Shown: positions 21,942-62,605 of the stretch, piece by piece | Numbering within the stretch: the first letter of the stretch is position 1 | Layout of the letters: every line of letters begins with the position of its first letter | Source: a virus | Direction: 5' to 3' (one strand) | Virus record (IMG/VR): IMGVR_UViG_3300025087_000048 | Coordinates: 1 to 64,000 of that record | Length of the DNA: 64,000 nucleotides | Notes under the pieces: model-generated | Told to the model about the DNA's origin: nothing | What the model saw: the letters and a program-made list of their open reading frames with translations, nothing else | The model's database searches: none | Made by a program: the position numbers and the translations under genes

Positions 21942-22541
21942 CTACGTTCCCGCAATTTCCATTGCGGTTTTATTCGCCTTTATCCGATTACATTGAGCAC
22001 AAGCTAACGCAAGATTAGACCCCGATGATCCTCCTCCACGACTTCTTGGAATCATATGATCAAGCACAAATGTTAAAATATCAAGAGTTTGATGACAGTA
22101 GTAACAACACCCTTCTTGAAACCACCACAATCGTCTAATTGTGTAGCCAATTTCTCCACTGACATGCCCTTTTCTATACCAAGCAGTCGCAGCACGTAAT
22201 CTTCTGCCAGCACGAACCCACTCTGGATGTTTCGCCAGCCAGCCAGCAGTACGTCGAATCTCTCTACCTTTATTCGTATAATACCGTACATGCTCTTTCA
22301 TACGAAGTTCTTCTCTATGTGTATCCGCGTAGCGTTTCCACGACAAAGCTAAGCGACCTGACGTACTCCTATTACGTCTCCAACGAGTCACATCAAGCGG
22401 ATGTTTCTTTTCCCATTCCCGGGTATATTGTGCTTGACACAAACGACAATATGTTCGCAATTGTGCCACCCTACCCAAACGAAATCCAAATTCAAGTTCT
22501 GACTTCTCAACCTTACAACGTGGGCATATTTTCATTAACAT
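21942..22541 (-). CDS. Free-standing HNH homing endonuclease
   Basis: CPRC..CRLC; CYYC...LDHMIPRSRGG...NLALACAQCNRIK. Confidence 0.9.
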   Translation of the reverse strand: MLMKICPRCKVEKSELEFGFRLGRVAQLRTYCRLCQAQYTREWEKKHPLDVTRWRRNRSTSGRLALSWKRYADTHREELRMKEHVRYYTNKGREIRRTAGWLAKHPEWVRAGRRLRAATAWYRKGHVSGEIGYTIRRLWWFQEGCCYYCHQTLDILTFVLDHMIPRSRGGGSSGSNLALACAQCNRIKANKTAMEIAGT

Positions 22542-23543: not shown

Positions 23544-24953
23544 TCACGGGGCCGCTGGAACACGACGCTGCACCCTGCTGTCTTGGGTATTTGTCCCAGA
23601 TCCCATTGAATGTTCAAAATTCTCAGCACCAGACAAATGATCCCCGCTAAACCGTTTCGGATACGGAATCCCCAATTTCGTACGAACATCATCCTCGATT
23701 TCATCACGCAATGCAACCAAATCTGTCTTACTCAGATCTGGAGTCCACACATGGCTAATATATTCTTTTGGCTTCCCTTTGTAAAAGGCAAACTCGGTAG
23801 CGTAATTAATCTCCTCAAAGTACAATGTCGCACCATTTTCCTGCAAAACCTGGCTCTTCCGCACGTACTGACACACTCGATGTCCATTGGACGTCTCTGG
23901 TAACACCTGACGCTCTTCCCACAGAGGCGTACCCGGATAAACCGTAATAACGGTTACATCAAAATCATCTGGACGTGCCCACAAGAGCCAATCCTTCAAG
24001 TTCTGTGCAGACTCATGCGTCTCCCCAGGATGCCCCAGGGATGTAAACGCTTTACTCCTCATTCCGTGTTTCCGCACAAGATCTACATATTTCTTATTTA
24101 TTTCCCGTGTTGTCTGCTTCTGAATCACACCAAGAATACGATCATCTCCCGCCTCCACACCAGTACAAATATCCACAAACCCAGCCTCAGCCATAGCTTC
24201 TGCTTGCTGATCTGTAAAAAGATTCGCCTTCACAAACGCCCGAAACTTCATCCCCAATGGCTTGATCTTCTGACAGAATTCCAGAAGAGGCTCATTCAAA
24301 AGATTTATTTCATCGTCAAACGCCATCACCGCACGAATTCCGTATACCTCCACAAGATGTTCCATCTCAGCAACCACATCGTCCACTGACCGAGTACGTA
24401 CACGTCGATAATACGGATTCGTCCTTCCACAACAAAATAGGCAACCAAAAGGACATCCCTGAGACAACATCATGGACGTCCCCTTCAACCCACGCAGCGA
24501 ATATTGATACGAATTCAAATCAATCAGATGCCGAGCAGGCCACGCCCATTGAACCAAACCCTTCTGTGTCCCACTCGCTTCATCCAAGACAGCAGGCGCA
24601 TCTGGTTCAATAGCCGAAAGAATCGCCTTCTCCCCGTCCCCTCGAATCACACAGTCAAACATCGAGCAAGATTCCGGCATCACTGTGGCATGCGGACCTC
24701 CAAGCAGCACACGCTTGTCAGGCTGATGCTGACGAATCCGCTGAAGCAAGGCTACTACTGTTGGAAACTGCGGTGTCGTCGCCGTAATACCATATGTATC
24801 CCATCCCCAACTTAAATACGGCTGAAGATCCTCCAAGGGAGCCACAGATCCAGCCAGATCCACAACCCGAACATCATGACCAGACTGCTCAAGAATAGCC
24901 GCTACCTGCAATAATCCAAGTGGAGGGAAAACCCTATCATCAAGAAGCGTCAA
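23544..24953 (-). CDS. Cobalamin-binding radical SAM protein; the N-terminal 13 aa lie in another frame (ATG 24991 or 25135)
   Basis: FPPLGLLQVAA, LLGGPHAT, GDGE, SQGCPFGCLFC, GVEAG, LGHPGET. Confidence 0.85.
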   Translation of the reverse strand: MTLLDDRVFPPLGLLQVAAILEQSGHDVRVVDLAGSVAPLEDLQPYLSWGWDTYGITATTPQFPTVVALLQRIRQHQPDKRVLLGGPHATVMPESCSMFDCVIRGDGEKAILSAIEPDAPAVLDEASGTQKGLVQWAWPARHLIDLNSYQYSLRGLKGTSMMLSQGCPFGCLFCCGRTNPYYRRVRTRSVDDVVAEMEHLVEVYGIRAVMAFDDEINLLNEPLLEFCQKIKPLGMKFRAFVKANLFTDQQAEAMAEAGFVDICTGVEAGDDRILGVIQKQTTREINKKYVDLVRKHGMRSKAFTSLGHPGETHESAQNLKDWLLWARPDDFDVTVITVYPGTPLWEERQVLPETSNGHRVCQYVRKSQVLQENGATLYFEEINYATEFAFYKGKPKEYISHVWTPDLSKTDLVALRDEIEDDVRTKLGIPYPKRFSGDHLSGAENFEHSMGSGTNTQDSRVQRRVPAAP

Positions 24954-25135
24954 AGGAACGGTGAAGGTGGATTAATAAGACAAACATTCATCGTTCCGGA
25001 TCACCCCCTCGACGGCTGATGATCGCAAAATCCATCAGCAATGTTCCACTTTCGATCCAAACGTGGAACAGCTAAAGAAGACAATGTTACCGCTAATAAG
25101 AAAGGACTTGGCGGATTTATTAAGCATATGTTCAT
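24948..25135 (-). promoter_or_regulatory. Structured leader cassette with two recoded copies of the radical SAM N-terminus
   Basis: MNICLINPPSPFLL at 25135 and MNVCLINPPSPFL* at 24991; three consecutive hairpins. Confidence 0.6.
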
Positions 25136-25138
25136 AAT

Positions 25139-25339
25139 CTATCTACGCCTCGGCCTAAAAATAGGAATAAAAGAATCAGCAGCACTCACTCCACCACCAC
25201 CAGCCATCACATACATAAAATCAGTTTGCGCCCAATCCTCAGTTCCCACAGTCCCATCAGGCAAAGGCCACAACCCCCGCCATGGACAGGCAGGAGCAAT
25301 TGCCGATGCACGCTTCTCCCGCGTATCTAAATCTGCCAC
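25139..25339 (-). CDS. Small tail-associated protein
   Basis: (M)ADLDTREKRASA motif; coupled to the upstream gene. Confidence 0.6.
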   Translation of the reverse strand: MADLDTREKRASAIAPACPWRGLWPLPDGTVGTEDWAQTDFMYVMAGGGGVSAADSFIPIFRPRRR

Positions 25340-26013
25340 TACGGACCTGCCCCCACCTCACCCTTGGTAAACGTCGTGGCATTATCCGACACAGTTGCTT
25401 TCTGATCCACAGTCAAGGCATCATCGCCAAATAAACTGTACTGCGTCGCGGTCTGCGTGCTCGTGTTGCGCCACGCCTTGTAGAGATAGGCAAGCATCTT
25501 GCGGAGCGTCTGCGTAGCCGCCGGAGCTTCCTGACCCACTTCAGCATAGGTGTCCACGTTCAGCGCATCCACTACTTCGCTTTGCACTTCCGCGTCCCAG
25601 CTTGCATTCCACGGGATAGCCGTCAATCCGGCGCCGAGCGCACCGATCACGGCGGTGTCCACGAGGATCGCCTGCACCACTTCGTACAGCGTCGAGGCCG
25701 CCGCCCGCACAACGAATGAGCCCACGAATCCCGCCGGGTTGACGCTGCTGATCGTGAGCGTGCAGAAGACCGCGTACTCGCCCTCGGCGTAGCCCGTCGT
25801 GTCGATGGCGATCTCATGGAGGCCGTCCGAGTAGTTCGCATGCGTGAGGAGCGTGGGCGTCCCGCTCGCGGTGGGTGCGGCACCCGATGCGGCACCCGCC
25901 AGTCGCACGTCGTAGAGGGGCGTGGCGCCGTCTCCCGCACTCCCAGCCGTCGTGTTCGCGGCGAACCAGAAGTAGACCGTCCCTCCGACCGCGACTTCCT
26001 TGGGGGCGCTCAT
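25339..26013 (-). CDS. Tail fibre-associated structural protein
   Basis: Ala/Thr-rich and beta-rich; YLYKAWRN..TQT..DQKATVSD C-terminus. Confidence 0.65.
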   Translation of the reverse strand: MSAPKEVAVGGTVYFWFAANTTAGSAGDGATPLYDVRLAGAASGAAPTASGTPTLLTHANYSDGLHEIAIDTTGYAEGEYAVFCTLTISSVNPAGFVGSFVVRAAASTLYEVVQAILVDTAVIGALGAGLTAIPWNASWDAEVQSEVVDALNVDTYAEVGQEAPAATQTLRKMLAYLYKAWRNTSTQTATQYSLFGDDALTVDQKATVSDNATTFTKGEVGAGP

Positions 26014-30085: not shown

Positions 30086-31075
30086 CTACTGAGATTTGCC
30101 CGCAGAGTCAATAGATCCACCCCCAACTTGTTGCTCAATCCACTGATATGTTGGCACAAGTCCATCATACAACTTCGTACTCGGTTCCCAACCAAGAAGT
30201 TTCTGAATTAACGTATTATCACTATTCCGCCCACGCACACCCTGCGGGCGAGCAAGATCATACTGCTTATATATCCGCTTGCCAGCAATTTTACATATCA
30301 TATCAATTAACTTATTCACCGAAACTACCTCAGTAGACCCAAGATTTAATGGTTGGTGTATATCAGACTGCATAATGCGATAAATCCCCTCTACACAGTC
30401 ATCAACATAACAATACGATCGCGCCTGTGCGCCATCTCCCCACACCTCAATGGTCCCCCCATCGGGGGCCATAGCGATCTTGCGGCACAGAGCCGCTGGG
30501 GCCTTCTCACGGCCTCCCTGGTAGGTTCCGAGCGTGCCATAAATGTTGTGAAAACGAGCAATACGAGTTGACAGCTTCTTATCTTCCCAATAATACTTAC
30601 ACAGTTCCTCTGCAAACAATTTCTCCCACCCATATGCTGGCTCAGGATTCGCCGGATATGCTTCCCATTCAGCCAACGGTTTTGCTCCAACCCACCCCTG
30701 CCGTTCAACTGGGTACACGCATGCGCTAGACGAATAAAAGAACCGTCGTACCCCGACATCAGCCGATGCCTCTAGCATATTCGAATCAATCAACACGTTA
30801 TTGCGAGCAACATCCGCATGCACTGACGTAATATACCCGATCCCGCCCATGTCAGCTGCAAGATGGTACACTTCGTCAATATCTCGTACAGCCTCATCGC
30901 AAGCCGACACCTGACGCAAATCCAATGTCAAGAACTCATGAGCAGCTGATAGCTCATACTCAGGCAACTTCACATCAACACCACGCACATGATATCCACC
31001 ACGAACAAGATATTTCACAAGGTGATGCCCTAGGAATCCGCCCGCACCTGTCACTAACGCATTTATTTTGCTCAT
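30086..31075 (-). CDS. GDP-mannose 3,5-epimerase-like extended SDR
   Basis: VTGAGGFLG, HLAADMGGIGYI, YSSSACVYP, YGWEK, RFHNIYG, GGREKAPAALCRK, GVRGRNSDN. Confidence 0.88.
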   Translation of the reverse strand: MSKINALVTGAGGFLGHHLVKYLVRGGYHVRGVDVKLPEYELSAAHEFLTLDLRQVSACDEAVRDIDEVYHLAADMGGIGYITSVHADVARNNVLIDSNMLEASADVGVRRFFYSSSACVYPVERQGWVGAKPLAEWEAYPANPEPAYGWEKLFAEELCKYYWEDKKLSTRIARFHNIYGTLGTYQGGREKAPAALCRKIAMAPDGGTIEVWGDGAQARSYCYVDDCVEGIYRIMQSDIHQPLNLGSTEVVSVNKLIDMICKIAGKRIYKQYDLARPQGVRGRNSDNTLIQKLLGWEPSTKLYDGLVPTYQWIEQQVGGGSIDSAGKSQ

Positions 31076-32322
31076 CGCACAACCCCCCCAAGACGAAGCA
31101 CAGGCGCTGTTACTTCAAGCTTCGCCTCACCGTACATCAGATTGTCAAACTCCGGCCACGCCGTCGCAATAATAAACACGTCTGCCTTATCTAATACGTC
31201 AGAGAGCCCCAGCGGAGTCTCGCACGACACCCCTGACACAATGGAACCGCCCATCGGATCATACCCAAGCACGGGCCATCCGCGACCAATACATGCATCG
31301 ACGATTGCCATGCCCTGAGACAGTGTCGTGTCGGCAGCCCCTGGGTTATACACAAGACCAAGAACTCCAATTACAGGCTTTTTCCGCGCACTACTGAGTT
31401 TTATATGCGTCTCAATCCAACCCAGCGTCGAAGTAATCACTCGCTGTCTAGACAGTCCATGCCCCAGCTTTGCACTCACAGCCATCGGCGATGACCCCAG
31501 CGAGCACCACACATCAAGGTCACGAGGCAAGCAAGGTCCCGCTGGACTCCAACCAGGTTTCAAATATGCAGACCCAATACGCGCATCCCCACCTACAGCT
31601 TCAAGAACCTTCTCAGACGACGCTCCAACGGCACGACACATCTCAGCAATCTCGTTTGCCCAAGCAATACGTGATGACAACGACACATTGATTGCCAATT
31701 TTGCCACCGCAATACTCAGAGGATCACCCACAACTTCACGAACATTCACCTGATGAACACCCGACCAACCCCACAACTCTCTCAGAACCTCCAACCCCGC
31801 TGACGTATTCATCCCAAAAAGACCCACCGTCGGATACGCCAAATCCTCAATCACATGCCCAAGCCGAATTAACGGCGGGTTATACAGCACTTCAGGCCCA
31901 GTACACACTTTCGTCACCGTACGAGGATCGAGCGTAGACCCAACAATGACCCACCCGGACCACCCAGATATGTTGATCTGATCCAGAACCGATTTGACAT
32001 ACTCCGCTGAAAGCCCAGAACCACGTTTTGGAGTTGGAACAATGACGTATGCGTACGCTCGATCAGAAACAAGTCCTTTTGATATCCCTGGATGATACAA
32101 CGCCTCATCAAGCGTTCTTACGTATTTGATTGACCCGAGCCATTCAGCAACACCAGGTTCCCAAGGAAGCGGATTTTCCCCTTGAGATAGCCGTGACAAC
32201 AACTCTGAATCCACATCATACCCGATCACTTGATGCCCAAGACGAGCAAAATAGCAGGCAGTAGGAAGTCCGACACGCCCTAATCCGATCACAGCAACAT
32301 TCACGGTTCGCTGTCCGGCCAT
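31072..32322 (-). CDS. UDP-glucose/GDP-mannose dehydrogenase family protein
   Basis: IGLGRVGLP, VPTP, ST, AKLA.N...I..ANE, DARIG, GPCLPRD, YDP, ATAWPEF. Confidence 0.88.
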   Translation of the reverse strand: MAGQRTVNVAVIGLGRVGLPTACYFARLGHQVIGYDVDSELLSRLSQGENPLPWEPGVAEWLGSIKYVRTLDEALYHPGISKGLVSDRAYAYVIVPTPKRGSGLSAEYVKSVLDQINISGWSGWVIVGSTLDPRTVTKVCTGPEVLYNPPLIRLGHVIEDLAYPTVGLFGMNTSAGLEVLRELWGWSGVHQVNVREVVGDPLSIAVAKLAINVSLSSRIAWANEIAEMCRAVGASSEKVLEAVGGDARIGSAYLKPGWSPAGPCLPRDLDVWCSLGSSPMAVSAKLGHGLSRQRVITSTLGWIETHIKLSSARKKPVIGVLGLVYNPGAADTTLSQGMAIVDACIGRGWPVLGYDPMGGSIVSGVSCETPLGLSDVLDKADVFIIATAWPEFDNLMYGEAKLEVTAPVLRLGGVVR

Positions 32323-33371
32323 ATTTCTCTCCCATTCCAATATGTAAAATTGTCAACATCGTTAATTGGAACTGACGCCGTCGTTCTCCATCCGGTCAAC
32401 AACTCTGATAACTCATCCATTGACCACGGATTCAATGCTCGAGGGGACCCACCCGCTTGCATCTCTGCCTTCCGACGTTCCACGTACGCCAATCCATCGG
32501 GCCAACTCCAACGTCCCTCCAACCGAATTGGCTTTGACGATCCAAAAGGCAGCGCAGGATCAATCATATGCGGATCGAGATAGCACACCGATACCTCAGG
32601 AGCCCACCATAATTCAACATGTGCCGCTAACAAACGATATTGTAAGTCAATATCCAGCGGACCCCGCCCCCGTTCCAACCGTTCATCTAACCCGTTGAGC
32701 TCCCACATCACATCACGACACACCGAATCATTCTTAATATGGAGCCACCCATCTCCAAGACCAGACCCACCCGTTCGCCTCAACTCTGTCATGCGAAGAT
32801 CCTGATGGCGTACTGGCAATCCCATCAAATGCGGCAGCCACGCAGATTGAAATCTCCCAGCCTTCATTGGGTACATCTCATCCAAAATCTCCCCGCGTGC
32901 CACCGGGCTCTCTTCCGTACATTCGAATCCTGCTTCCCACTTTCGCACCACCGCCTCAAAATCATACGGCTGCTTGAGAACAAGTTCAGGAATCGGGACA
33001 AACCGGTAGCTCCCCGCCACGTACCGCCGCTGCCCGTCCAACGCCTTCAGGTGCCCCTCAATCCATCCTGGCGGGGTATACATCCAATCAGCCAAGAAGA
33101 TCACCACACGCCCTCGAGCCAACGCAATTGCAGTATTCCAAGCTGACGCGAAAGACACCCATTTCCCATTCCGCCGATGTTCAGGAACATGAAGCAACGG
33201 CACATCATAACCCCACGCCATCTCCTGTACTTCTTTATGTCTCTTCTCGTACCGACGGTCAACCAAAATAACTTCAAAATCTTTGAACGTCTGATCTCTC
33301 ATCCCAGCCAAAAGAACATCAATTCCGCCCGGCCTGAACACAGTAGACAATACGGACACTTCAGGCGTCAT
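32301..33371 (-). CDS. Glycosyltransferase family 2-like
   Basis: QTFKDFEVILVD, AWNTAIALARG, NGLDE...DIDLQYRL. Confidence 0.8.
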   Translation of the reverse strand: MTPEVSVLSTVFRPGGIDVLLAGMRDQTFKDFEVILVDRRYEKRHKEVQEMAWGYDVPLLHVPEHRRNGKWVSFASAWNTAIALARGRVVIFLADWMYTPPGWIEGHLKALDGQRRYVAGSYRFVPIPELVLKQPYDFEAVVRKWEAGFECTEESPVARGEILDEMYPMKAGRFQSAWLPHLMGLPVRHQDLRMTELRRTGGSGLGDGWLHIKNDSVCRDVMWELNGLDERLERGRGPLDIDLQYRLLAAHVELWWAPEVSVCYLDPHMIDPALPFGSSKPIRLEGRWSWPDGLAYVERRKAEMQAGGSPRALNPWSMDELSELLTGWRTTASVPINDVDNFTYWNGREIWPDSEP

Positions 33372-33877
33372 ACAGACACCAAATACGACCAAGATCGTCC
33401 CCTACGAACGTCACGAATAGCAGAATCAGACACTCCAAAACGACGACCTAACACTGGTGCAGACTCATTACTCATTCTTATTTCCAAAACACGCGCTTCT
33501 GTCAATTTAGTCCAACCCAACCGCTCACCTCTTCGCCACGAATGGTCAATTAACCCCAAAGCATTTGCATGTTTCATATTTTCGGAGCGAGTAACATACT
33601 CCAAGTTAGAAACAAAATTGTTAGTTTTAACCCCATCTAAATGGTTAACCTCATACCCATCCGGCCTTGGTCCAATAAACGCTTCTGCAACAACTCGATG
33701 AACAAGCATCAAATTTGTCACTCCTGGACGTCTAAGGCGAATACATAAGTACCCACCTGGGTGTTTCCACACTCTCATCATATGTACACGCCCTTTAATT
33801 CTGAACACATCCCCCAAATTAGATACCAAATATTGCTGCTCGTAACCAACAACAGGACGCCAATCAAGTTCAAGCAT
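33368..33877 (-). CDS. NUMOD4-HNH homing endonuclease
   Basis: WRPVVGYE..YLVSNLGDV; VHRVVAEAF; VNHLDGVKTNN.VSNLEYVT.SEN. Confidence 0.93.
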   Translation of the reverse strand: MLELDWRPVVGYEQQYLVSNLGDVFRIKGRVHMMRVWKHPGGYLCIRLRRPGVTNLMLVHRVVAEAFIGPRPDGYEVNHLDGVKTNNFVSNLEYVTRSENMKHANALGLIDHSWRRGERLGWTKLTEARVLEIRMSNESAPVLGRRFGVSDSAIRDVRRGRSWSYLVSV

Positions 33878-34433
33878 GCCTAACCCCGGTCACATGCATT
33901 TCCCATTTATTATACCAACCGCCATGCACAATATTAGAAAAACCAGCAAATTCTAACTCAGTTTTAAACGAATCAAAATTATACAACCATTTATGATATC
34001 CAAATCCATTTTCATTATTAGGCCCATGAAACAAACATGAAAGCCACCCTTCAAACAATCCATCCTCTCGTAACCGTTCAAGAATAAAATCACCATCCCC
34101 TATCATCACAATAATTTGCCCACCAGTATCAAGAATACGATAACATTCACGAAGAATTTTTCGAGCTGCATCCCGTGATAAATGCTGTAAAGAATGAATT
34201 GCCTTTACACACTGTGCATGCCCATCATGAAACGGAAGATCTTCCTGTTCCAAATCGCACACAATATCCACATTTGGCCCAGCAGATATATCAACATTCG
34301 GATGATAGACATCCTCTGCCGGACCCCCACCAATCTCCACCCACCGAGAGATCCCACACTGCTCGCACAGAGGTCCATACCCCCCTGATGGCGGAGGAGG
34401 CCCATGGGACTGCCACCGCGTAATATCCACCAT
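33870..34433 (-). CDS. Class I SAM-dependent methyltransferase
   Basis: VEIGGG, NVDI, DLPF, HSLQHL, L.ECYRIL..GG. Confidence 0.8.
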   Translation of the reverse strand: MVDITRWQSHGPPPPSGGYGPLCEQCGISRWVEIGGGPAEDVYHPNVDISAGPNVDIVCDLEQEDLPFHDGHAQCVKAIHSLQHLSRDAARKILRECYRILDTGGQIIVMIGDGDFILERLREDGLFEGWLSCLFHGPNNENGFGYHKWLYNFDSFKTELEFAGFSNIVHGGWYNKWEMHVTGVRHA

Positions 34434-37264
34434 CAGACCACCTCGACAGGTTTCTGAAGCAACCGCTTCCTGGCGTACCACACGGCCTGCTTTGCAAACT
34501 CCTCCAGATTTCCGCCAAACTCATCAGCCGTTCTCACTAACACACGATCCCAAGCAAGCCGTAACAACACATCCACCAAATCCGGCCATTGAAGCCGAAG
34601 TAATAAATTCATCTCTTCGTAAAATCTGGAACTCTTCTGTGAAGCAATATTCAAATATGTAAATTCCTCAGTTGGCCAGATAATATTCCCATACCGAAGA
34701 TCAACCTCACCCCACTGGCCTCCGTCCAACCCGCGTTTCACAATCGCGATCGTTCGCCTATATTCCTCAGCCAATAATGTCGCGGGTCGTCGAGATGCCA
34801 CCTGCAAAAGCCACTCATAAAACTCCCGGTATGACACACCTTGAACATCATGCAAATACATCGCAACTTCCCGGAGTAACCCAAACCCATGAAATGTCTG
34901 AACTGCCCACGAGAACATATACGCCTGCACCCAATCCGCTTCCGGCATCGTTGCGGTCTCAATACATAGGAGACAGGTTTCTTGAATTCCATCCTGATTC
35001 GGAGTCGAGTGCTGTTGCAACAGCGGAGACTGAATCACACGCATTCCATGCTTCTTCTGATACTCGAGATCGCCCATCTCTGCATTCGGAAGAACTGCCA
35101 ACAAATAAATATTCAGTCCCTCATGTTGCCCAGCCTTTAATAGCTGCTCAATCCCCCTGGTAAACGAGTCGTATGTCTCCCCTGGCAAACCAAGAATTAA
35201 CTCCGTGTATGTAGGAATTCCCTCCTGACGATATGTCCCCAACAATGATTTGAAGTTCTCGATCTTAATATTACTCCGCTTGATCTCCTGTAACGTATGT
35301 GCGTCAAGGCTCTGAAAACTCAATGTGGTCCCCTTACTCATTCCTGCCTGGTGGACCACACTAGAGATATCAAGAACTTTCTGATTACTGTTCTTTGCGT
35401 ATGCCGCCCGAAATTGCCGTGGATAGCCATATTTTTCTTTCGCAGCAACCATTTCCTTTGTCAATTCAAGATCACGTGGAAGCAATCCAAAATTCGCATC
35501 ACAATTATAAAGTAGTTCAATTTCGTGCTGACCCATCCACTCAAATTCACGAACAAGACGTTCATCATCAAACGCTCGTATCTTCGTAAGGACCGCAGAA
35601 CCCCAATCACAATTGTGGCTTTCCAACCCGAAAACACTATAAATTGGAGTATCTTCTACTTCTAAATTAAAAACATACCCAGAAAAATCGGCATCACTTA
35701 CGGACGTCACATACGCCCACAAGTTTATTGGTAACTTTTCCGGAAACCGCCCAGCAAATTCTATCCGATAGGATTCATGCACATTAACATCTCGCCCGCA
35801 AATTCTAGGAACAAGCAATTTACGTTTAGAAACACCAGCACAAATACCAAGCAGACTCAGCAAAACCTGAAGTTGAGTAGCAAGAGTCAACGACACAGTC
35901 GAAGCAATACAGCGACCTTGAGAATTCTTCTTATCAATACTGAAACACCCATCTCCATCGAAATAGCCGCGAATAAACGCATGTATCAATTCCGACGAAA
36001 CACTAAACCACGCGTACGGAATCTTTTTCCTTAACGATCCAGAACCGAACAACTTAGAAAACAAACGAGCATACACCGAACTACAAACATAAATTTGCAT
36101 GCCTGTATCAGTTTCAGATACGATCGGTTCGACACCTAAGCACAACCTAACCAGTTGGCATGTTTCAGTAATTAAATCAGTCTCGTGTTTCCCAAACGTC
36201 CATCCTACAACACCAGAATTTGGCCGAGTTTTTGAAAAAGAAACATGTCCTTCCGCAACATACAACCCGCACAAACGCATAAACAAGTTATTCATAATTA
36301 CATAACGTGGCACTTTCACTTTGCCACGCTTGAATTTAACAAACATACCATCTACACACAACGCATCTAAATAGTTACATAGATCTAAAATCTCCACGCC
36401 CGCTCTCTGTGTATCCGGCACAGATACACGAATACGATCTCCTACAGTAATTTCACCAGCAGAAATCCATCCGCGCTGCGTCAACCATTCATGATTAGGC
36501 GTACACTGTATCAAAGGACGCCCTACAACTTTCACTCGTTTAATCACCCCGGAGTACCGCCGCTCATACCTATGCAGAATCTGCTTCAATCCAGTATGCG
36601 TCCAAACTTGTTCGCCTACTTTATCCAAAACAACTTCAGAAATAGGCACAGACCCAGCGTCTGTCATAATAACTGCATCACCTGTCAAACAAAAACTGCA
36701 AGAATAGACACATCCCCTATGCGTCTCTTGACTAGCATTATGATTATAGTCCGCTTCAAGCATCATGTCGAACACACCGGTCACATACGGAGATGGCAAA
36801 ATAGAAAGATCAGCAATTCGTGAACCAGATCGGTGAACCAAGGTTTCTGCCTTCAACCCACTACAACGAACCAGTAAAATCTCAGAAAACGCGATTTCTC
36901 CCTCATGATGAACAACAACGTCCACATAATCCGGGATATCACGACGTAATGCCACTGACTTTGGAACATGCGGACCACCAAACACGATCAAACAGTCCGG
37001 ATACGATTCACGAACTTTCTGTGCAAGAACCTTGTTAAACTCCCAGTTCCAAATATAACATGAAAACCCGACAACATCCGGATTTTCCATTCGTTCCACA
37101 ATCGCATCAGAACGCTCTCGAAGATAAATCAACTCTTTGAAACAGTATTCTTTGTTTACCCAATCAAGTGACTGACAGTATGCTTGAATCAATCCGACGG
37201 AATACGGAAGAAACACGTTATCCCCGAACCGATTATTCACTTGAACCAAATACACGTTACGCAT
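34433..37264 (-). CDS. Cobalamin-binding radical SAM protein with a LAGLIDADG intein
   Basis: LPYSVG, GFSCYIWN, VFGGPHV, ETHRGCVYSCSF[intein]CDWG, CDANFG, ELILGLPGET. Confidence 0.9.
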   Translation of the reverse strand: MRNVYLVQVNNRFGDNVFLPYSVGLIQAYCQSLDWVNKEYCFKELIYLRERSDAIVERMENPDVVGFSCYIWNWEFNKVLAQKVRESYPDCLIVFGGPHVPKSVALRRDIPDYVDVVVHHEGEIAFSEILLVRCSGLKAETLVHRSGSRIADLSILPSPYVTGVFDMMLEADYNHNASQETHRGCVYSCSFCLTGDAVIMTDAGSVPISEVVLDKVGEQVWTHTGLKQILHRYERRYSGVIKRVKVVGRPLIQCTPNHEWLTQRGWISAGEITVGDRIRVSVPDTQRAGVEILDLCNYLDALCVDGMFVKFKRGKVKVPRYVIMNNLFMRLCGLYVAEGHVSFSKTRPNSGVVGWTFGKHETDLITETCQLVRLCLGVEPIVSETDTGMQIYVCSSVYARLFSKLFGSGSLRKKIPYAWFSVSSELIHAFIRGYFDGDGCFSIDKKNSQGRCIASTVSLTLATQLQVLLSLLGICAGVSKRKLLVPRICGRDVNVHESYRIEFAGRFPEKLPINLWAYVTSVSDADFSGYVFNLEVEDTPIYSVFGLESHNCDWGSAVLTKIRAFDDERLVREFEWMGQHEIELLYNCDANFGLLPRDLELTKEMVAAKEKYGYPRQFRAAYAKNSNQKVLDISSVVHQAGMSKGTTLSFQSLDAHTLQEIKRSNIKIENFKSLLGTYRQEGIPTYTELILGLPGETYDSFTRGIEQLLKAGQHEGLNIYLLAVLPNAEMGDLEYQKKHGMRVIQSPLLQQHSTPNQDGIQETCLLCIETATMPEADWVQAYMFSWAVQTFHGFGLLREVAMYLHDVQGVSYREFYEWLLQVASRRPATLLAEEYRRTIAIVKRGLDGGQWGEVDLRYGNIIWPTEEFTYLNIASQKSSRFYEEMNLLLRLQWPDLVDVLLRLAWDRVLVRTADEFGGNLEEFAKQAVWYARKRLLQKPVEVV
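35612..36691 (-). mobile_element. Intein with homing endonuclease (360 aa) in the radical SAM
   Basis: CLTGD...CTPNHEW...GLYVAEG...FIRGYFDGDG...VFNLEV...SHN|C. Confidence 0.93.
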
Positions 37265-38273
37265 ACCACGCCCACTCTGGTTTTTGCCCCACAAGATGCC
37301 CTGCATTGCCGCTCACAATCCTGGACGCATCATGCTCACACGCCAAAAACCTCGGGAGCGACGCTTCAGGTGTACTTCTCCACACTGAATGCGGGAAGTA
37401 ATGCCGAGGATTCACAATCTCAACAGTTGCCACCGGATCAAGAAGCATCCATGCAGCTCCAGAACGACTCAGACGAAGACCCATATCCGAATCATCATAA
37501 CAATGACCGATCCACGACTCGTCAAACCCGTTCACTTCACGTCCCCGCTCAGCCCCCATCCCTTCATTTTTCGCATGAAACGCAGTCGGAGGAACATCTC
37601 CACTCACAAGTCCATTCAATTTTGGATCAGCACGGAAAAAATACGGATCTTCATCCAAAGTCAGAACTTGCTCAGGATACTTAATCGGCGGATCAAAGAT
37701 CGTGTACATCCATTTATCGTAAACCCCGTCCTGTATCGCGTCAGCAAACTCTTGTCCAGCCTGTGCTGAATATTGGTAGGTTGCTCCCTGCACTGGTTTC
37801 ACCACACAGTCCACTGTGGCTGCTCCGTATACCCAATGTGCCCGAATTGGTGCATACGCTGGAAGATCATATGCCAGAGTCGGAGGATACCGGTATCGGT
37901 GCGCTCCCATCCCGGCCTTCTTCTTCTCGGTGTACTCCCAGACCCCCCAGTGTTCCCGTAAGCATGCTTCTGGGAAAAACGAGTAATCCACCCCCCACAC
38001 AATCAGTTCCCCGGATGCCTTCGCAATCGCCGTATTCCTAGCGGCCGGAACTGAATCCAATGGGAATATCCGATCCTTCGGGGGTGTATGAACCACCCGA
38101 ATACTCGCATCAAAAAAGGCATCCGCCACTTGTTCGGCCCGGCGATGGTACAATGCATCAACGAGTACCACCTCGAAATCATCAAAGATCTGACGAGTCA
38201 ACCCAGCTAAAAGAACATCAAGACCGCCTGGCCGCACAGTCACAATACACAAACTTAACCTGGGTGCCCCCAT
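37257..38273 (-). CDS. Glycosyltransferase family 2-like (paralog of 32301-33371)
   Basis: RPGGLDVLLAG..Q.F.DFEVVLVD, ARNTAIAKASG, VNGFDE..G..YDDSD...RL. Confidence 0.82.
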   Translation of the reverse strand: MGAPRLSLCIVTVRPGGLDVLLAGLTRQIFDDFEVVLVDALYHRRAEQVADAFFDASIRVVHTPPKDRIFPLDSVPAARNTAIAKASGELIVWGVDYSFFPEACLREHWGVWEYTEKKKAGMGAHRYRYPPTLAYDLPAYAPIRAHWVYGAATVDCVVKPVQGATYQYSAQAGQEFADAIQDGVYDKWMYTIFDPPIKYPEQVLTLDEDPYFFRADPKLNGLVSGDVPPTAFHAKNEGMGAERGREVNGFDESWIGHCYDDSDMGLRLSRSGAAWMLLDPVATVEIVNPRHYFPHSVWRSTPEASLPRFLACEHDASRIVSGNAGHLVGQKPEWAWYA

Positions 38274-38488
38274 TACCGAACATCTGCCAATTGCATATGA
38301 ACCAAACGAGATGTTAACACCAGCTCTGGTTCCTCATGAACCCCCTCAACAACACATGCACACACGTCTGAAAATACCTGCCGCACTGTCCCTGTCCATG
38401 ACGACACACCCCTCGGACCCCAGCCTGACTTCACAAACACAACATCTCCAACATTAATCACTCGGAGATCCTGACTTGCATGTGGCAT
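38273..38488 (-). CDS. Small SH3/KOW-like hypothetical protein
   Basis: VGDVVFV...WTGTV; coupled. Confidence 0.5.
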   Translation of the reverse strand: MPHASQDLRVINVGDVVFVKSGWGPRGVSSWTGTVRQVFSDVCACVVEGVHEEPELVLTSRLVHMQLADVR

Positions 38489-38500
38489 ACGTCACCCCTT

Positions 38501-39553
38501 TCAGTTTTTACCAGTGTACAACTCACGAAGCACCGCCTCCTCGGACTTTACCCACGTGCACATGTCCTTCACTCCAGCCTGGATCGTCACCGTTGGATGC
38601 CACTGCATCCCCACCATTCGCTCAATATTCGATACATACACTTTATTGTCCTGTGGCCTCCAATCTCCGTACACGATCACTGGTTTCATTCTCAACTCAT
38701 CGGCAATCAACGCAAGTGCTTCGACCAATGACGTAGCGTTCCGCACTCCACCACCGAGATTGAATAATTCGCCCTTGTACACATCAGCCACCTCGAACAA
38801 CCGATCAAACGCAGTACACACATCCAGCACATGCAACATATCTCGCACCTGGAACCCGTCGCCCTTGATCTCAATAGGCAACCCCAGGAGCGTTGCAATA
38901 CAGAACCACCCGAGCCATCCCTGTGCGGATCGTCCAAATTGCCGTGGACCATACATCCCGGATGGCACGACAATCACAATTGGCATGTCATACATCGCCG
39001 CATAACAACGGCTGTAATATAATCCAGCTATCTTCGACGCCCCGTACGGCTCCTTCGCATCCGTATAAAATGGAAACTGCTCCGATGGACCGTGCCGATT
39101 CCCGACCCACCGATATCGAGATCCATTCAACTCGACAGGCCACCCGGTCACGTCGTATACCTTGTTCGATGCTAAATACAACACCTTTGCCTTCGGAGCA
39201 GCGTGTCGAAGTTCGTCCAGAAGCGTAAATGTACCAATAACATTCGATGAAAAATCAACTTCAGGAGCTTCCATTGATACATTGACACTTGACTGTGCTG
39301 CGGCATGTACAACACGATCAATCCCATCAAATTGCTTCAATGCACTTTGCACCACTTCTGGTAACGCAACATTTCCGTGAACAATTCGCAAAAACGGAGA
39401 CGTCGCATATTTCCTAAGCCACTCTTCGTTATACTTACACGATCTCCCACGAGTATACCCATCAAGCACAACAACCTGATATCCATGTTCCAGGCAATGT
39501 TTTGCATAGTTACTCCCGACCAACCCTAGACCGCCCGTAATTAACACTCGCAT
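38501..39553 (-). CDS. NAD-dependent epimerase/dehydratase (CDP-paratose 2-epimerase RfbE-like)
   Basis: LITGGLGLVGSN, HAAAQ, ASNKVY, PYGASK, MYGPRQFG...QGW.GWF, GDG.QVRD.L, DWRP.D.KVY.S. Confidence 0.85.
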   Translation of the reverse strand: MRVLITGGLGLVGSNYAKHCLEHGYQVVVLDGYTRGRSCKYNEEWLRKYATSPFLRIVHGNVALPEVVQSALKQFDGIDRVVHAAAQSSVNVSMEAPEVDFSSNVIGTFTLLDELRHAAPKAKVLYLASNKVYDVTGWPVELNGSRYRWVGNRHGPSEQFPFYTDAKEPYGASKIAGLYYSRCYAAMYDMPIVIVVPSGMYGPRQFGRSAQGWLGWFCIATLLGLPIEIKGDGFQVRDMLHVLDVCTAFDRLFEVADVYKGELFNLGGGVRNATSLVEALALIADELRMKPVIVYGDWRPQDNKVYVSNIERMVGMQWHPTVTIQAGVKDMCTWVKSEEAVLRELYTGKN

Positions 39554-39567
39554 GGATAATCTCCTGT

Positions 39568-39744
39568 TTAATTCAAACACGTACGCTGTGAATCCAGATC
39601 TCCCATCTGAAGTAACGCTCCCTGTAGCAAATACATTTCCCCGTCCGGCACGAACGGACAACACACCACCTCCACGTTCCCCATCTTTCCGACACTCTTA
39701 TGGTCAAGCTGACAAATCGGACACCAGACACAAACCTTATTCAT
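39568..39744 (-). CDS. Small Cys-rich hypothetical protein
   Basis: CVWCPIC...CCP; ATGA overlap. Confidence 0.4.
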   Translation of the reverse strand: MNKVCVWCPICQLDHKSVGKMGNVEVVCCPFVPDGEMYLLQGALLQMGDLDSQRTCLN

Positions 39745-40847
39745 GTTGGAAGCCTGCGCTGAATCATCTCCTCCCACTGACGAGCCACCACATCCCACTG
39801 ATACTGCTGGGCAAACGCACGAACCTGTTCACGAGCATTATCAATCGACTCCGGATGCTGAAACGCCTGAAGAACAGTCTCAATATAACTATCCGTCCAT
39901 TTACGTGTTTCTCCGCGAGGAACAACCAAAGCCCCACTCTCTCCATAAATCTCTCCGAGCGCATCCGCATCAGTAATCACTGGAACCACACCAGCGGCAC
40001 ACGCTTCCAATACAGCAACTCCAAACCCCTCAGTAAAACGAACTGGATCACATGGATACAGCATCACATCAGCCTGCAACAACTCCTCTGCCAGTACGTG
40101 AGGAGCAACTGCCCCGTGAACAAACACACCATGTCCCTTCAACTCGTTCAATCGTCGTACAATAAACTTAGCCCGTTGCCCGATCTCGGAATTCAACAAG
40201 ATCGCACTATCGAGCCATTTTTGAATTTCATAAAATATATGAAGTTCCGCGTCCGGATACGCCAAATGGATCTCGGCCCACATTGCTAACACCCAGTGCA
40301 ATCCTCGATCCGGAGATGACAAATAAACACATCGTCTCTTCTTACGAGGTCTCACCGCTAAAAACCGATCCACATCAACTCCATTCGGGAGAATCTCCAC
40401 TCGCTCCATACTTGTCGGATGCCCATCTTCTTTCCACAAGTGATCCCGATGGGCCTGTGAAACTGAAACATAGACATCGACAAAGTTCTCAAACCCGTGC
40501 GTTGACAACATCCAATCATTAATCTGAATACTCAACACCCGCAACGTCTTCGACCCAAGATCTCGAAGAAAATCTGCGGTCAACCACGAAATCACGACAT
40601 CAGCCCCATCAGTTCTTCGCAATCGAGGCCACGCTCTCCGCACATCCAACACTTCCACCCCGTCAAAGAATCCTGGTTGATCTGTCGGCATATAGCACAC
40701 CACACGGTAACCACTCTTGGCCTGAGCCTTAGCCAGATACAACATGGTCTGTTCCGACCCGGTCACCCCTCGACCACCAGATACAAGATCTGAGTAGCTC
40801 AATGGGCCGTGGGCCGTTTCGAGCAAACAATGCACCAATGTTTTCAT
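39741..40847 (-). CDS. Glycosyltransferase family 4 (GT-B)
   Basis: GSEQ, VS..H, PNGVD, YLSSPDRGL, EGFGVAVLEA (EX7E). Confidence 0.88.
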   Translation of the reverse strand: MKTLVHCLLETAHGPLSYSDLVSGGRGVTGSEQTMLYLAKAQAKSGYRVVCYMPTDQPGFFDGVEVLDVRRAWPRLRRTDGADVVISWLTADFLRDLGSKTLRVLSIQINDWMLSTHGFENFVDVYVSVSQAHRDHLWKEDGHPTSMERVEILPNGVDVDRFLAVRPRKKRRCVYLSSPDRGLHWVLAMWAEIHLAYPDAELHIFYEIQKWLDSAILLNSEIGQRAKFIVRRLNELKGHGVFVHGAVAPHVLAEELLQADVMLYPCDPVRFTEGFGVAVLEACAAGVVPVITDADALGEIYGESGALVVPRGETRKWTDSYIETVLQAFQHPESIDNAREQVRAFAQQYQWDVVARQWEEMIQRRLPT

Positions 40848-62528: not shown

Positions 62529-62605
62529 TGGTCAGGGTAGGAGGCTTTGATCCTCCGACCCCCGCGCCCCAGACGCGGTGCGCTCCCAGGCTGCGCCATA
62601 CCCTG
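62529..62605 (-). tRNA. tRNA-Pro(UGG), atypical, with encoded CCA
   Basis: CAGGGTA/TACCCTG-A-CCA acceptor stem; GCGC D-stem; CCGCG-TCTGGGG-CGCGG; GGAGG-ATCAAAG-CCTCC. Confidence 0.85.

What the first reader, a model, noticed from the sequence alone, without database searches (positions are those of the whole stretch)
24940..25135. Radical SAM gene whose N-terminus is duplicated, recoded, out of frame and folded into a three-hairpin RNA
Seen (minus strand): ATG 25135 encodes MNICLINPPSPFLL and runs on to a TGA at 25003-25001. ATG 24991 (SD GAGGGGG) encodes MNVCLINPPSPFL then TGA. The two copies use different synonymous codons at almost every position. The gene body (LLDDRVFPPLG...) is in another frame, after CTT-TGA-CG-CTT-CTT-GAT. 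The segment folds into consecutive stems: 25070-63/25049-42, 25039-33/25021-15, and a long stem in which GGAACGATGAA (containing the AUG) pairs 10/11 with TTCACCGTTCC and CGTCGAG pairs with TTTGACG. The frame-breaking bases are therefore themselves paired, which argues against a random error. Known: the hydrophobic xxLINPP strand begins cobalamin-binding domains, and matched-codon hopping over a stop is the T4 gene 60 mechanism. Inference: four options fit, namely a CUU-to-CUU 8-nt stop-hop, excision of a ~150-nt element joining copy 1 to LLDD, TTGA re-initiation under leader or ligand control, or the relic of a homing element.
Basis: partly seen in the sequence, partly recalled or inferred. 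Interest (0 to 1): 0.85.

Follow-up and report, generated by a model that had tools for sequence, protein, structure and literature searches.

The report
Conserved 8-base gap in phage enzyme gene
A phage gene for a vitamin-B12-type radical SAM enzyme has an 8-base frame-breaking insert after codon 13, kept under strong selection in three diverged phage lineages, so ribosomes probably skip it ("stop-hop") to make the full enzyme; the duplicated N-terminus upstream is a decaying recombination scar.

Summary
On the minus strand, ORF1 (ATG 24991, MNVCLINPPSPFL) ends at TGA 24952-50. The 469-codon body is in another frame. A second, recoded copy of the N-terminus starts at 25135.

The break is an 8-nt insert (CTT-TGACG-CTT-CTT) relative to every intact homologue. 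It is not a read error or a pseudogene:
- It occurs in two independent metagenome contigs (L004, L011) and in at least 8 protein variants on more than 55 contigs.
- The body has dS of 1.1-2.0 and dN/dS of 0.04-0.10.
- All five base changes in ORF1 codons 5-13 are silent (P about 0.001).
- ORF1 encodes the beta1 strand of the B12-binding domain.

An 8-nt hop of peptidyl-tRNA-Leu from CUU over UGA-C to the next CUU/CUC gives a 479-aa product that aligns without a gap to the intact 479-aa homologue. CUUUGAC is also the prfB slippery-stop heptamer. I favour programmed recoding, most likely this hop. UUGA termination-reinitiation is the main rival.

Of the three hairpins, only the one pairing the SD and AUG with codons 9-13 plus the insert is conserved. 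Copy 1 is a relic of the resident gene's 5' end. It is degenerate in L004 and absent in L011, which refutes the excision model. No protein evidence exists.

The parts
24950..24991 (-). ORF1: 13 codons (MNVCLINPPSPFL) plus TGA. It encodes the beta1 strand of the B12-binding domain.
   Evidence: Translation. The Pfam B12-binding profile matches the TTG ORF only from profile position 12. In the AF2 model of intact homologue P0002, residues 2-7 form a strand with pLDDT about 92. Codons 5-13 carry only silent changes in L004 and L011.
24953..24955 (-). Proposed take-off codon CTT (Leu 13).
   Evidence: invariant in all three lineages. CUU-UGA-C is identical to the prfB slippery-stop heptamer (PMC10798248).
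24948..24952 (-). Coding gap TGACG: the in-frame stop TGA with a weak +4 C context, then G.
   Evidence: Invariant in WIN, L004 and L011. None of the 15 TGA stops ending long minus-strand ORFs in the window is followed by C.
24945..24947 (-). Proposed landing codon CTT (CTC in L004). Together with the gap it makes up the 8 nt that are absent from intact homologues.
   Evidence: Alignment A2 shows an 8-column gap in L002. The L004 variant CTC is read by the same Leu isoacceptor class (the tRNA assignment is inferred).
23544..24944 (-). Resume codon CTT and the body of the B12-binding radical SAM enzyme (466 codons plus stop).
   Evidence: Pfam PF02310 and PF04055. dN/dS is 0.04-0.10 at dS 1.1-2.0 among the broken lineages. 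The hop product of 479 aa aligns ungapped to P0002.
24951..24953 (-). TTG overlapping the stop (TTGA): the rival restart codon used by gene callers.
   Evidence: the ORF listing. All 469-aa cluster members start here. No purine-rich SD lies within 20 nt upstream.
24940..25012 (-). Conserved hairpin. The SD (GAGGGGGTGATC, 25010-24999) and the AUG pair with codons 9-13, the insert and the landing codons.
   Evidence: Consensus fold of the three lineages has 34 pairs, with changes that keep pairing. Single folds give -20.5, -25.3 and -27.6 kcal/mol, with z-scores of -1.5, -2.9 and -3.6. The intact L002 has no such fold (z -1.0).
25001..25135 (-). Copy 1: relic of the resident gene's 5' end, now a 44-codon upstream ORF that stops at a TGA inside the SD of ORF1.
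   Evidence: Its upstream context is syntenic with that of the intact gene in L002. It shares 24 of 39 nt with copy 2. It is degenerate and 18 codons shorter in L004, and absent in L011.
25042..25070 (-). Hairpin 1 (8 bp). It lies within a ~54-nt segment that L004 lacks and is not conserved.
25015..25039 (-). Hairpin 2 (7-8 bp). It is shared with L004, where changes lengthen the stem, and is absent from L011.

Best explanation
The radical SAM gene is an active gene that needs programmed translational recoding. The steps below marked 'inferred' are not shown by any data.

1. Ribosomes start at AUG 24991 and translate 13 codons that encode the beta1 strand of the B12-binding domain.
2. They pause with peptidyl-tRNA-Leu on CUU and the weak stop UGA-C in the A site. 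This is the prfB heptamer CUUUGAC.
3. Inferred: a fraction of ribosomes escape RF2. The tRNA unpairs, the mRNA slides 8 nt, and the tRNA re-pairs with the next CUU (CUC in one lineage).
4. Decoding resumes at CUU-GAU-GAU. The product is a 479-aa enzyme with the family junction ...SPFL-LDDRVF...
5. Inferred: initiation is gated by a conserved hairpin in which the insert and landing codons pair with the gene's own SD and AUG. Ribosomes that finish an upstream ORF open this hairpin. In this window and in L004 the upstream ORF is the relic copy 1, which stops inside the SD. In L011 it is a 98-codon gene that ends in an AUGA overlap.

Copy 1 is a scar of a recombination that replaced the resident gene with an incoming, already-interrupted allele.
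For: - The insert is real and old. It is present in L004 and L011. At least 8 distinct 469-aa variants on more than 55 contigs all begin at the same TTG.
- The gene is under strong purifying selection despite the break. dN/dS is 0.04-0.10 with dS 1.1-2.0, and this includes the B12-binding domain.
- ORF1 is selected as protein. Five base changes in codons 5-13, including CTT to TTG, are all silent (P about 0.001 by simulation). The N2K and C4L changes fall at family-variable positions.
- ORF1 encodes beta1.
- 105 of the 120 listed homologues have the motif at identical spacing; the other 15 are fragments, truncated start calls or motif variants.
- Only the hop product aligns ungapped to the 479-aa homologue P0002. 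The +2, -1 and double +1 models need 2-3 extra residues.
- CUU, UGA-C and CUY are invariant across the three lineages. No true TGA stop in the window has C at +4.
- Literature supports the mechanism. Stop-hops between matched codons flanking a stop occur in E. coli (PMC5009743). Ribosomes stalled at UGA can hop to codons that match the P-site anticodon (PMC6815119). The 10-nt frame-disrupting inserts in the phage Hau3 terminase gene were argued to be bypassed on the same logic, with mass-spectrometry support (PMC10732093).
- The hairpin is predicted in all three lineages.
Against: - There is no protein, ribosome-profiling or reporter evidence.
- Only three DNA sequences carry the site, so covariation and site conservation have little statistical power.
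- No SD-like element lies near the landing site and no take-off stem-loop is evident, so efficiency could be low.
- The junction (residues 12-15) has pLDDT below 50 in the AF2 model. A 2-3 residue insertion from a +2 or -1 shift might therefore be tolerated.
- The TTG overlapping the stop (UUGA) is equally conserved, so reinitiation cannot be excluded.
- The SD-to-AUG spacing is about 7 nt longer than at other genes of this phage with similar SDs.
Confidence: 0.55

Rival explanations
1. Termination-reinitiation. Ribosomes terminate at UGA and restart at the overlapping UUG (UUGA). They release a 13-residue peptide and make a 469-aa enzyme that lacks beta1. ORF1 would act only as a coupling leader, or its peptide would complement the enzyme non-covalently.
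For: The UUGA overlap is conserved in all three lineages. Overlapping stop-start coupling is common in phage operons, and L011 uses an AUGA overlap just upstream. Gene callers choose this TTG.
Against: No SD lies upstream of the UUG. The product would lack the central beta1 strand, yet the B12-binding domain has dN/dS of 0.04-0.10. ORF1 codons 5-13 change only silently, which is not expected of a mere leader. Non-covalent rescue by a released 13-mer is inefficient (inference).
Confidence: 0.22
2. Recoding by an overlapping-codon shift rather than a hop. Three forms are possible: a single +2 shift (CUU to UUG re-pairing, product SPFL-TL-LDD), a -1 shift (SPFL-LTL-LDD), or two successive +1 shifts at CUU-UGA-C and then UCU/CCU-UGA-Y (SPFL-DAS/DAP-DD).
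For: CUUUGAC is the prfB +1 site. The +1 frame runs into a second YCU-UGA-Y only three codons later. The junction loop has low confidence in the AF2 model.
Against: Each form adds 2-3 residues at a junction whose spacing does not vary in the 105 of 120 listed homologues that carry the motif. There is no SD 3 nt upstream as in prfB. Re-pairing is poor for the -1 shift and for the second +1 shift. The T-to-C change in L004 would be non-synonymous (Ser to Pro) under the double +1 model but silent under the hop model. Two sequential low-efficiency events are unlikely.
Confidence: 0.13
3. The break is a neutral or recent lesion or an assembly error, and the gene is a decaying pseudogene.
For: An 8-nt indel with an in-frame stop is the ordinary signature of pseudogenisation. 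Copy 1 upstream shows that this locus has undergone messy recombination.
Against: The same insert is present in independent assemblies from different sample sets and on more than 55 contigs. The 469-codon frame is intact in every variant, with dN/dS of 0.04-0.10 at saturated dS.
Confidence: 0.03

Closest known systems
[quoted passage not shown]
   Same: Both are phage genes with a short (8 or 10 nt) frame-disrupting block whose flanks are adjacent in uninterrupted homologues. In both, a slow-to-decode codon lies at the 5' end of the block, a highly conserved protein junction argues against single-nucleotide shifts, and local RNA structure surrounds the site.
   Different: Here the A-site codon is a stop (UGA-C), not the rare sense codon UUA. 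The take-off and landing codons are Leu CUU. The gene encodes a radical SAM enzyme, not terminase. There is one insert, not two. The insert pairs with the gene's own SD. No experimental support exists yet.
Phage T4 gene 60 50-nt bypass (PMC5009743; bioRxiv 10.1101/2022.08.31.505936)
   Same: [quoted passage not shown]
   Different: The gap here is 5 nt (an 8-nt move) rather than 47 nt (a 50-nt move). Only 13 residues are made before take-off, so no long nascent-peptide signal is possible. No take-off stem-loop or gap SD was detected. There is no sequence homology to the gene 60 cassette.
prfB (RF2) programmed +1 frameshift site
   Same: The heptamer CUU-UGA-C is identical. The first ORF is short and ends at UGA. 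There is potential for competition with RF2 and therefore for sensing RF2 activity (PMC10798248).
   Different: No SD lies 3 nt upstream. The +1 frame closes after three codons. The body is in the +2/-1 frame, so a simple prfB-type shift cannot express it.
Synthetic 'stop-hops' in E. coli (Weiss et al. 1987, as reviewed in PMC5009743)
   Same: Peptidyl-tRNA leaves a codon 5' of a stop and re-pairs at a matched codon just downstream.
   Different: Those were engineered, low-efficiency events. The 2016 review notes that no natural in-frame stop-hop was then known. The case here is natural, conserved and frame-changing.

Membership tests
Programmed translational bypassing (hopping) | A non-coding block inside a gene whose flanks are collinear with uninterrupted homologues | tested here: met
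   There is an 8-column gap against L002. 143 of 147 scorable family loci are uninterrupted. The hop product of 479 aa aligns ungapped to P0002.
Programmed translational bypassing (hopping) | Matched or cognate take-off and landing codons | tested here: met
   CUU/CUU in the window and L011, and CUU/CUC in L004.
Programmed translational bypassing (hopping) | A slow-to-decode A-site codon (stop or rare) immediately 3' of take-off | tested here: met
   UGA followed by C in all three lineages. None of the 15 genuine TGA stops in the window has C at +4.
Programmed translational bypassing (hopping) | The interrupted state is maintained by selection on both coding parts | tested here: met
   Body dN/dS is 0.04-0.10. 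ORF1 codons 5-13 change only silently, P about 0.001.
Programmed translational bypassing (hopping) | Stimulatory signals: nascent peptide, take-off stem-loop, SD 5' of the landing site | tested here: inconclusive
   A conserved hairpin exists, but its 3' arm is inside the ribosome at take-off. No SD lies near the landing site. The nascent chain is only 13 residues long.
Programmed translational bypassing (hopping) | A single polypeptide spanning the gap is demonstrated | not testable with these tools
   This needs mass spectrometry or a reporter assay.
prfB-type +1 programmed frameshift | Slippery-stop sequence CUU UGA C | tested here: met
   motif as given in PMC10798248.
prfB-type +1 programmed frameshift | The +1 frame encodes the remainder of the protein | tested here: not met
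   The +1 frame reads GAC GCU UCU UGA and then stops. The body is in the other frame.
prfB-type +1 programmed frameshift | A stimulatory SD about 3 nt upstream of CUU | tested here: not met
   The upstream sequence is CCACCUUCACCGUUC, which has no purine-rich tract.
Termination-reinitiation coupling | Overlapping stop and start codons, with an SD serving the restart | tested here: inconclusive
   The UUGA overlap is present and conserved, but no SD lies within 20 nt upstream.
B12-binding (class B-like) radical SAM enzymes | An N-terminal B12-binding Rossmann-like domain plus a radical SAM core | tested here: met
   PF02310 (8e-16) and PF04055 (2e-20). No NCBIfam subfamily reaches its cut-off. 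The best solved relative is AprD4, 6fd2.
Riboswitch or other described cis-regulatory RNA | A match to an Rfam covariance model | tested here: not met
   Only sub-threshold chance hits at E of 0.6 or above.
Intron-like excision joining copy 1 to the body | The upstream exon (copy 1) is present and conserved wherever the break occurs | tested here: not met
   L011 has the break but no copy 1. Copy 1 in L004 has lost invariant Ser and Pro residues.

The most novel reading that the evidence does not exclude
A naturally used, evolutionarily conserved 'stop-hop'. Ribosomes carry peptidyl-tRNA-Leu 8 nt from CUU over UGA-C to the next CUU, at the prfB slippery-stop heptamer, to make a phage B12-radical SAM enzyme. 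The bypassed bases also act as an anti-SD that closes the gene's own ribosome-binding site. Enzyme output would then depend both on upstream translation and on the host's RF2 termination capacity.
Probability: 0.35. Interest if true: 0.8.

Novelty: new variant of a known kind. Interest (0 to 1): 0.66.

Why it matters
Natural, functionally used translational bypassing is known from very few systems: T4 gene 60 and its cassette relatives, Magnusiomyces mitochondria, and the Hau3 terminase candidate. The 2016 recoding review (PMC5009743) notes that short stop-hops had been shown only in synthetic constructs.

A short hop conserved over saturated synonymous divergence, at the well-studied CUUUGAC motif, would be a compact and easily engineered model. 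It could be used to study take-off, landing and competition with RF2.

There is also a practical point for annotation. Gene callers truncate this enzyme by its beta1 strand in more than 55 metagenomic contigs.

Tried and rejected
- Sequencing or assembly error. Rejected: independent contigs and at least 8 protein variants share the break.
- Pseudogene. Rejected by dN/dS.
- Alternative genetic code. TGA is a normal stop in this phage (15 of 35 long minus-strand ORFs), and reading it as sense does not restore homology.
- Riboswitch or known RNA family. None found.
- Promoter or terminator in 24700-25500. None found.
- Repeated or MITE-like element. The 140-nt leader has no other copy in the 94-kb genome.
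- Excision of a ~150-nt element. Rejected.
- Recurrent breaks at the same junction in other lineages. The truncated database proteins P0064, P0065, P0068 and P0078 look like mis-called starts. Their nearest loci (85-87% for two, about 67-73% for the others) have the intact N-terminus in frame.
- Search of GenBank phages. No relative by DNA. The only protein hit is a 27%-identical Streptomyces phage SF3 gene.
- Motif scans of IMG/VR. None found, but the window's own and very near records are excluded from these scans.
- Motif scans of GTDB genomes. The exact junction pattern found nothing; a degenerate pattern gave only 5 chance hits inside unrelated continuous ORFs.
- The genome search 'relatives' is not available for virus records.

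Full report
**Observation**

The window is part of a 94-kb IMG/VR virus record. The relevant features are on the minus strand.

- An ORF starts at ATG 25135 (MNICLINPPSPFLLAV...) and stops at TGA 25003-01.
- A second ORF starts at ATG 24991 (MNVCLINPPSPFL) and stops at TGA 24952-50.
- A 469-codon frame is open from TTG 24953 to 23544. It begins (M)TLLDDRVFPPLG....
- Pfam finds a B12-binding domain and a radical SAM domain in the long frame. The B12-binding profile is matched only from position 12, so the first strand is missing from that frame.
- The two short N-terminal copies share 12 of 13 residues but only 24 of 39 bases.

**The break is an 8-nt insert**

- Every full-length homologue reads M-x-x-x-L-I-N-P-P-S-P-F-L-L-D-D-R-V-F-P-P-L-G.
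- 105 of the 120 listed proteins carry the F-L-L-D-x-R-V-F...L-G motif at exactly the same spacing. The rest are fragments, truncated start calls or motif variants.
- Aligned with the intact 84%-identical gene in L002, the window has eight extra bases: CCG TTC CTT [TGACGCTT] CTT GAT GAT.
- I fetched 160 further family loci from IMG/VR and GTDB genomes. Of the 147 that could be scored, 143 have the N-terminus in frame, and two of the remaining four (L132, L185) are intact on inspection with variant motifs.
- Four database proteins begin at the junction (P0064, P0065, P0068, P0078). They look like mis-called starts, because their nearest loci have the intact N-terminus in frame.

**The break is old and selected**

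- The 90% cluster of the TTG-start protein holds at least eight distinct 469-residue variants. They differ at up to 33-34 positions, lie on more than 55 contigs, and all start at the same TTG.
- Two metagenome contigs gave DNA: L004 (JGI) and L011 (Hainich groundwater). Both carry the insert. L004 has CTT TGA CG CTC CTT GAC GAT, and L011 has the same sequence as the window.
- Between these lineages the body shows dS of 1.1-2.0 and dN/dS of 0.04-0.10, including the B12-binding domain. This rules out an assembly error or a pseudogene.

**ORF1 is selected as protein**

- In codons 5-13 (LINPPSPFL), the five base changes seen in L004 and L011 are all silent: CTT to TTG, AAT to AAC, ATT to ATA and TCA to TCG.
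- Random changes would all be silent with probability about 0.001.
- The two replacements, N2K and C4L, fall at positions that vary across the family.
- In an AF2 model of the intact homologue P0002, residues 2-7 form the first strand of the Rossmann-like domain. The mean pLDDT of the first ten residues is 92.
- The enzyme therefore most likely needs ORF1 fused to the body.

**Which recoding event**

- The body is in the +2/-1 frame relative to ORF1.
- A hop of peptidyl-tRNA-Leu from CUU (24955-53), over UGA-CG, to the next CUU (24947-45; CUC in L004), with resumption at CUU 24944, gives a 479-aa protein. This aligns to the 479-aa P0002 in one ungapped block.
- The +2, -1 and double +1 models each add 2-3 residues.
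- Both base differences in L004 are silent under the hop model.
- CUU-UGA-C is exactly the prfB slippery-stop heptamer, in which the C after UGA weakens termination (PMC10798248). Here the +1 frame closes after three codons and no SD lies 3 nt upstream, so this is not a prfB-type shift.
- None of the 15 TGA stops ending long minus-strand ORFs in the window is followed by C.
- Stop-hops between matched codons flanking a stop are documented in E. coli (PMC5009743; PMC6815119).
- The 10-nt inserts in the Streptomyces phage Hau3 terminase gene were assigned to bypassing on the same collinearity argument, with mass-spectrometry support in E. coli (PMC10732093).
- I put recoding of some kind at about 0.65-0.7, with the 8-nt hop the most likely form.
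- The main rival is termination at UGA followed by reinitiation at the overlapping UUG (UUGA). That site is equally conserved. However, it has no SD and would give an enzyme without beta1.

**RNA structure**

- Only one of the three hairpins is conserved.
- Hairpin 1 (25070-25042) lies in a ~54-nt segment that L004 lacks, and L011 lacks it too.
- Hairpin 2 (25039-25015) is shared with L004, where changes lengthen the stem, but it is absent from L011.
- The third structure (25012-24940) is predicted in all three lineages, at -20.5, -25.3 and -27.6 kcal/mol with z-scores of -1.5, -2.9 and -3.6. The intact L002 leader has no counterpart.
The SD tract GAGGGGGUGAUC pairs with GA-CGCUUCUU, which is the insert plus the landing codons.
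- The bypassed bases therefore double as an anti-SD.
- With three sequences the covariation support is weak: one double change and several G-U to G-C changes.
- In each lineage an upstream ORF ends at or just before the AUG. The copy-1 ORF stops at the TGA inside the SD in the window and in L004. In L011 a 98-codon gene ends in an AUGA overlap. This suggests translational coupling that opens the hairpin (inference).
- No Rfam family, promoter-like site, terminator-like site or genomic repeat matches this leader.

**Copy 1**

- The sequence just upstream of copy 1 is the end of a small gene (...IPIFRPRRR*) followed by GAGGCGTAGATAGATT. It is homologous to the sequence just upstream of the intact gene in L002.
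- Copy 1 therefore sits where the resident gene's start should be.
- It is as diverged from copy 2 (62% nt identity) as distant family members are from each other.
- In L004 it has lost invariant residues (NPPYLFLL), is 18 codons shorter, and sits in a different upstream context. L011 has none.
- Copy 1 is thus a relic of a recombination that brought in an already-interrupted allele. It now serves at most as an upstream ORF. This rules out excision of a ~150-nt element.

**Context**

- In other phages the same enzyme lies next to genes similar to this window's glycan island at 30-41 kb.
- The closest solved relative is the aminoglycoside sugar diol-dehydratase AprD4.
- No NCBIfam subfamily reaches its cut-off.
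- A role in sugar tailoring is plausible but untested.

**Limits**

Only three DNA sequences of the site are therefore in hand.
- All mechanistic steps after 'the ribosome reaches CUU-UGA-C' are inferred.

Noticed in passing
window 21942-22541 (-): The HNH endonuclease gene is an insertion relative to the otherwise collinear locus L002. L002 has 48 nt where the window has 657 nt. It looks like a free-standing homing endonuclease about 1 kb downstream of the interrupted radical SAM gene. Whether the 8-nt insert protects a cleavage site, as proposed for T4 gene 60 and MobA, is untested.
   Followed up: partly
L006, L007, L008, L010 upstream flanks versus window 30100-41700: In other phages the homologous radical SAM gene sits directly next to genes similar to this window's glycan island (epimerase and glycosyltransferase region). 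This links the enzyme functionally to sugar tailoring.
   Followed up: partly
L011:1847-2143; L008 upstream of 2464: A small, very acidic protein gene (98 aa in L011; a similar acidic tail in L008) lies immediately upstream of the radical SAM gene and is translationally coupled to it. It has no Pfam or NCBIfam match. The window has the copy-1 relic in its place.
   Followed up: no
window 23544-24947 versus L004: Divergence inside the gene is mosaic. dS is 0.23 over the first 345 nt and 1.09 over the rest, which indicates recombination within the gene between lineages that both carry the insert.
   Followed up: no
window 62529-62605 (-): The phage encodes a tRNA-Pro (GGG).
   Followed up: no
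L017 (Ga0137411_1380395): This homologue contig shows several single-base homopolymer deletions relative to the near-identical L012 and L018. These look like assembly or read errors, not recoding.
   Followed up: partly
window 25139-25339 (-) and L011:1698-1841, L002 about 1240-1340: A small gene ending ...(F)IPIFR(P/S)RRR* precedes the radical SAM locus in three phage lineages. It has no family match.
   Followed up: no
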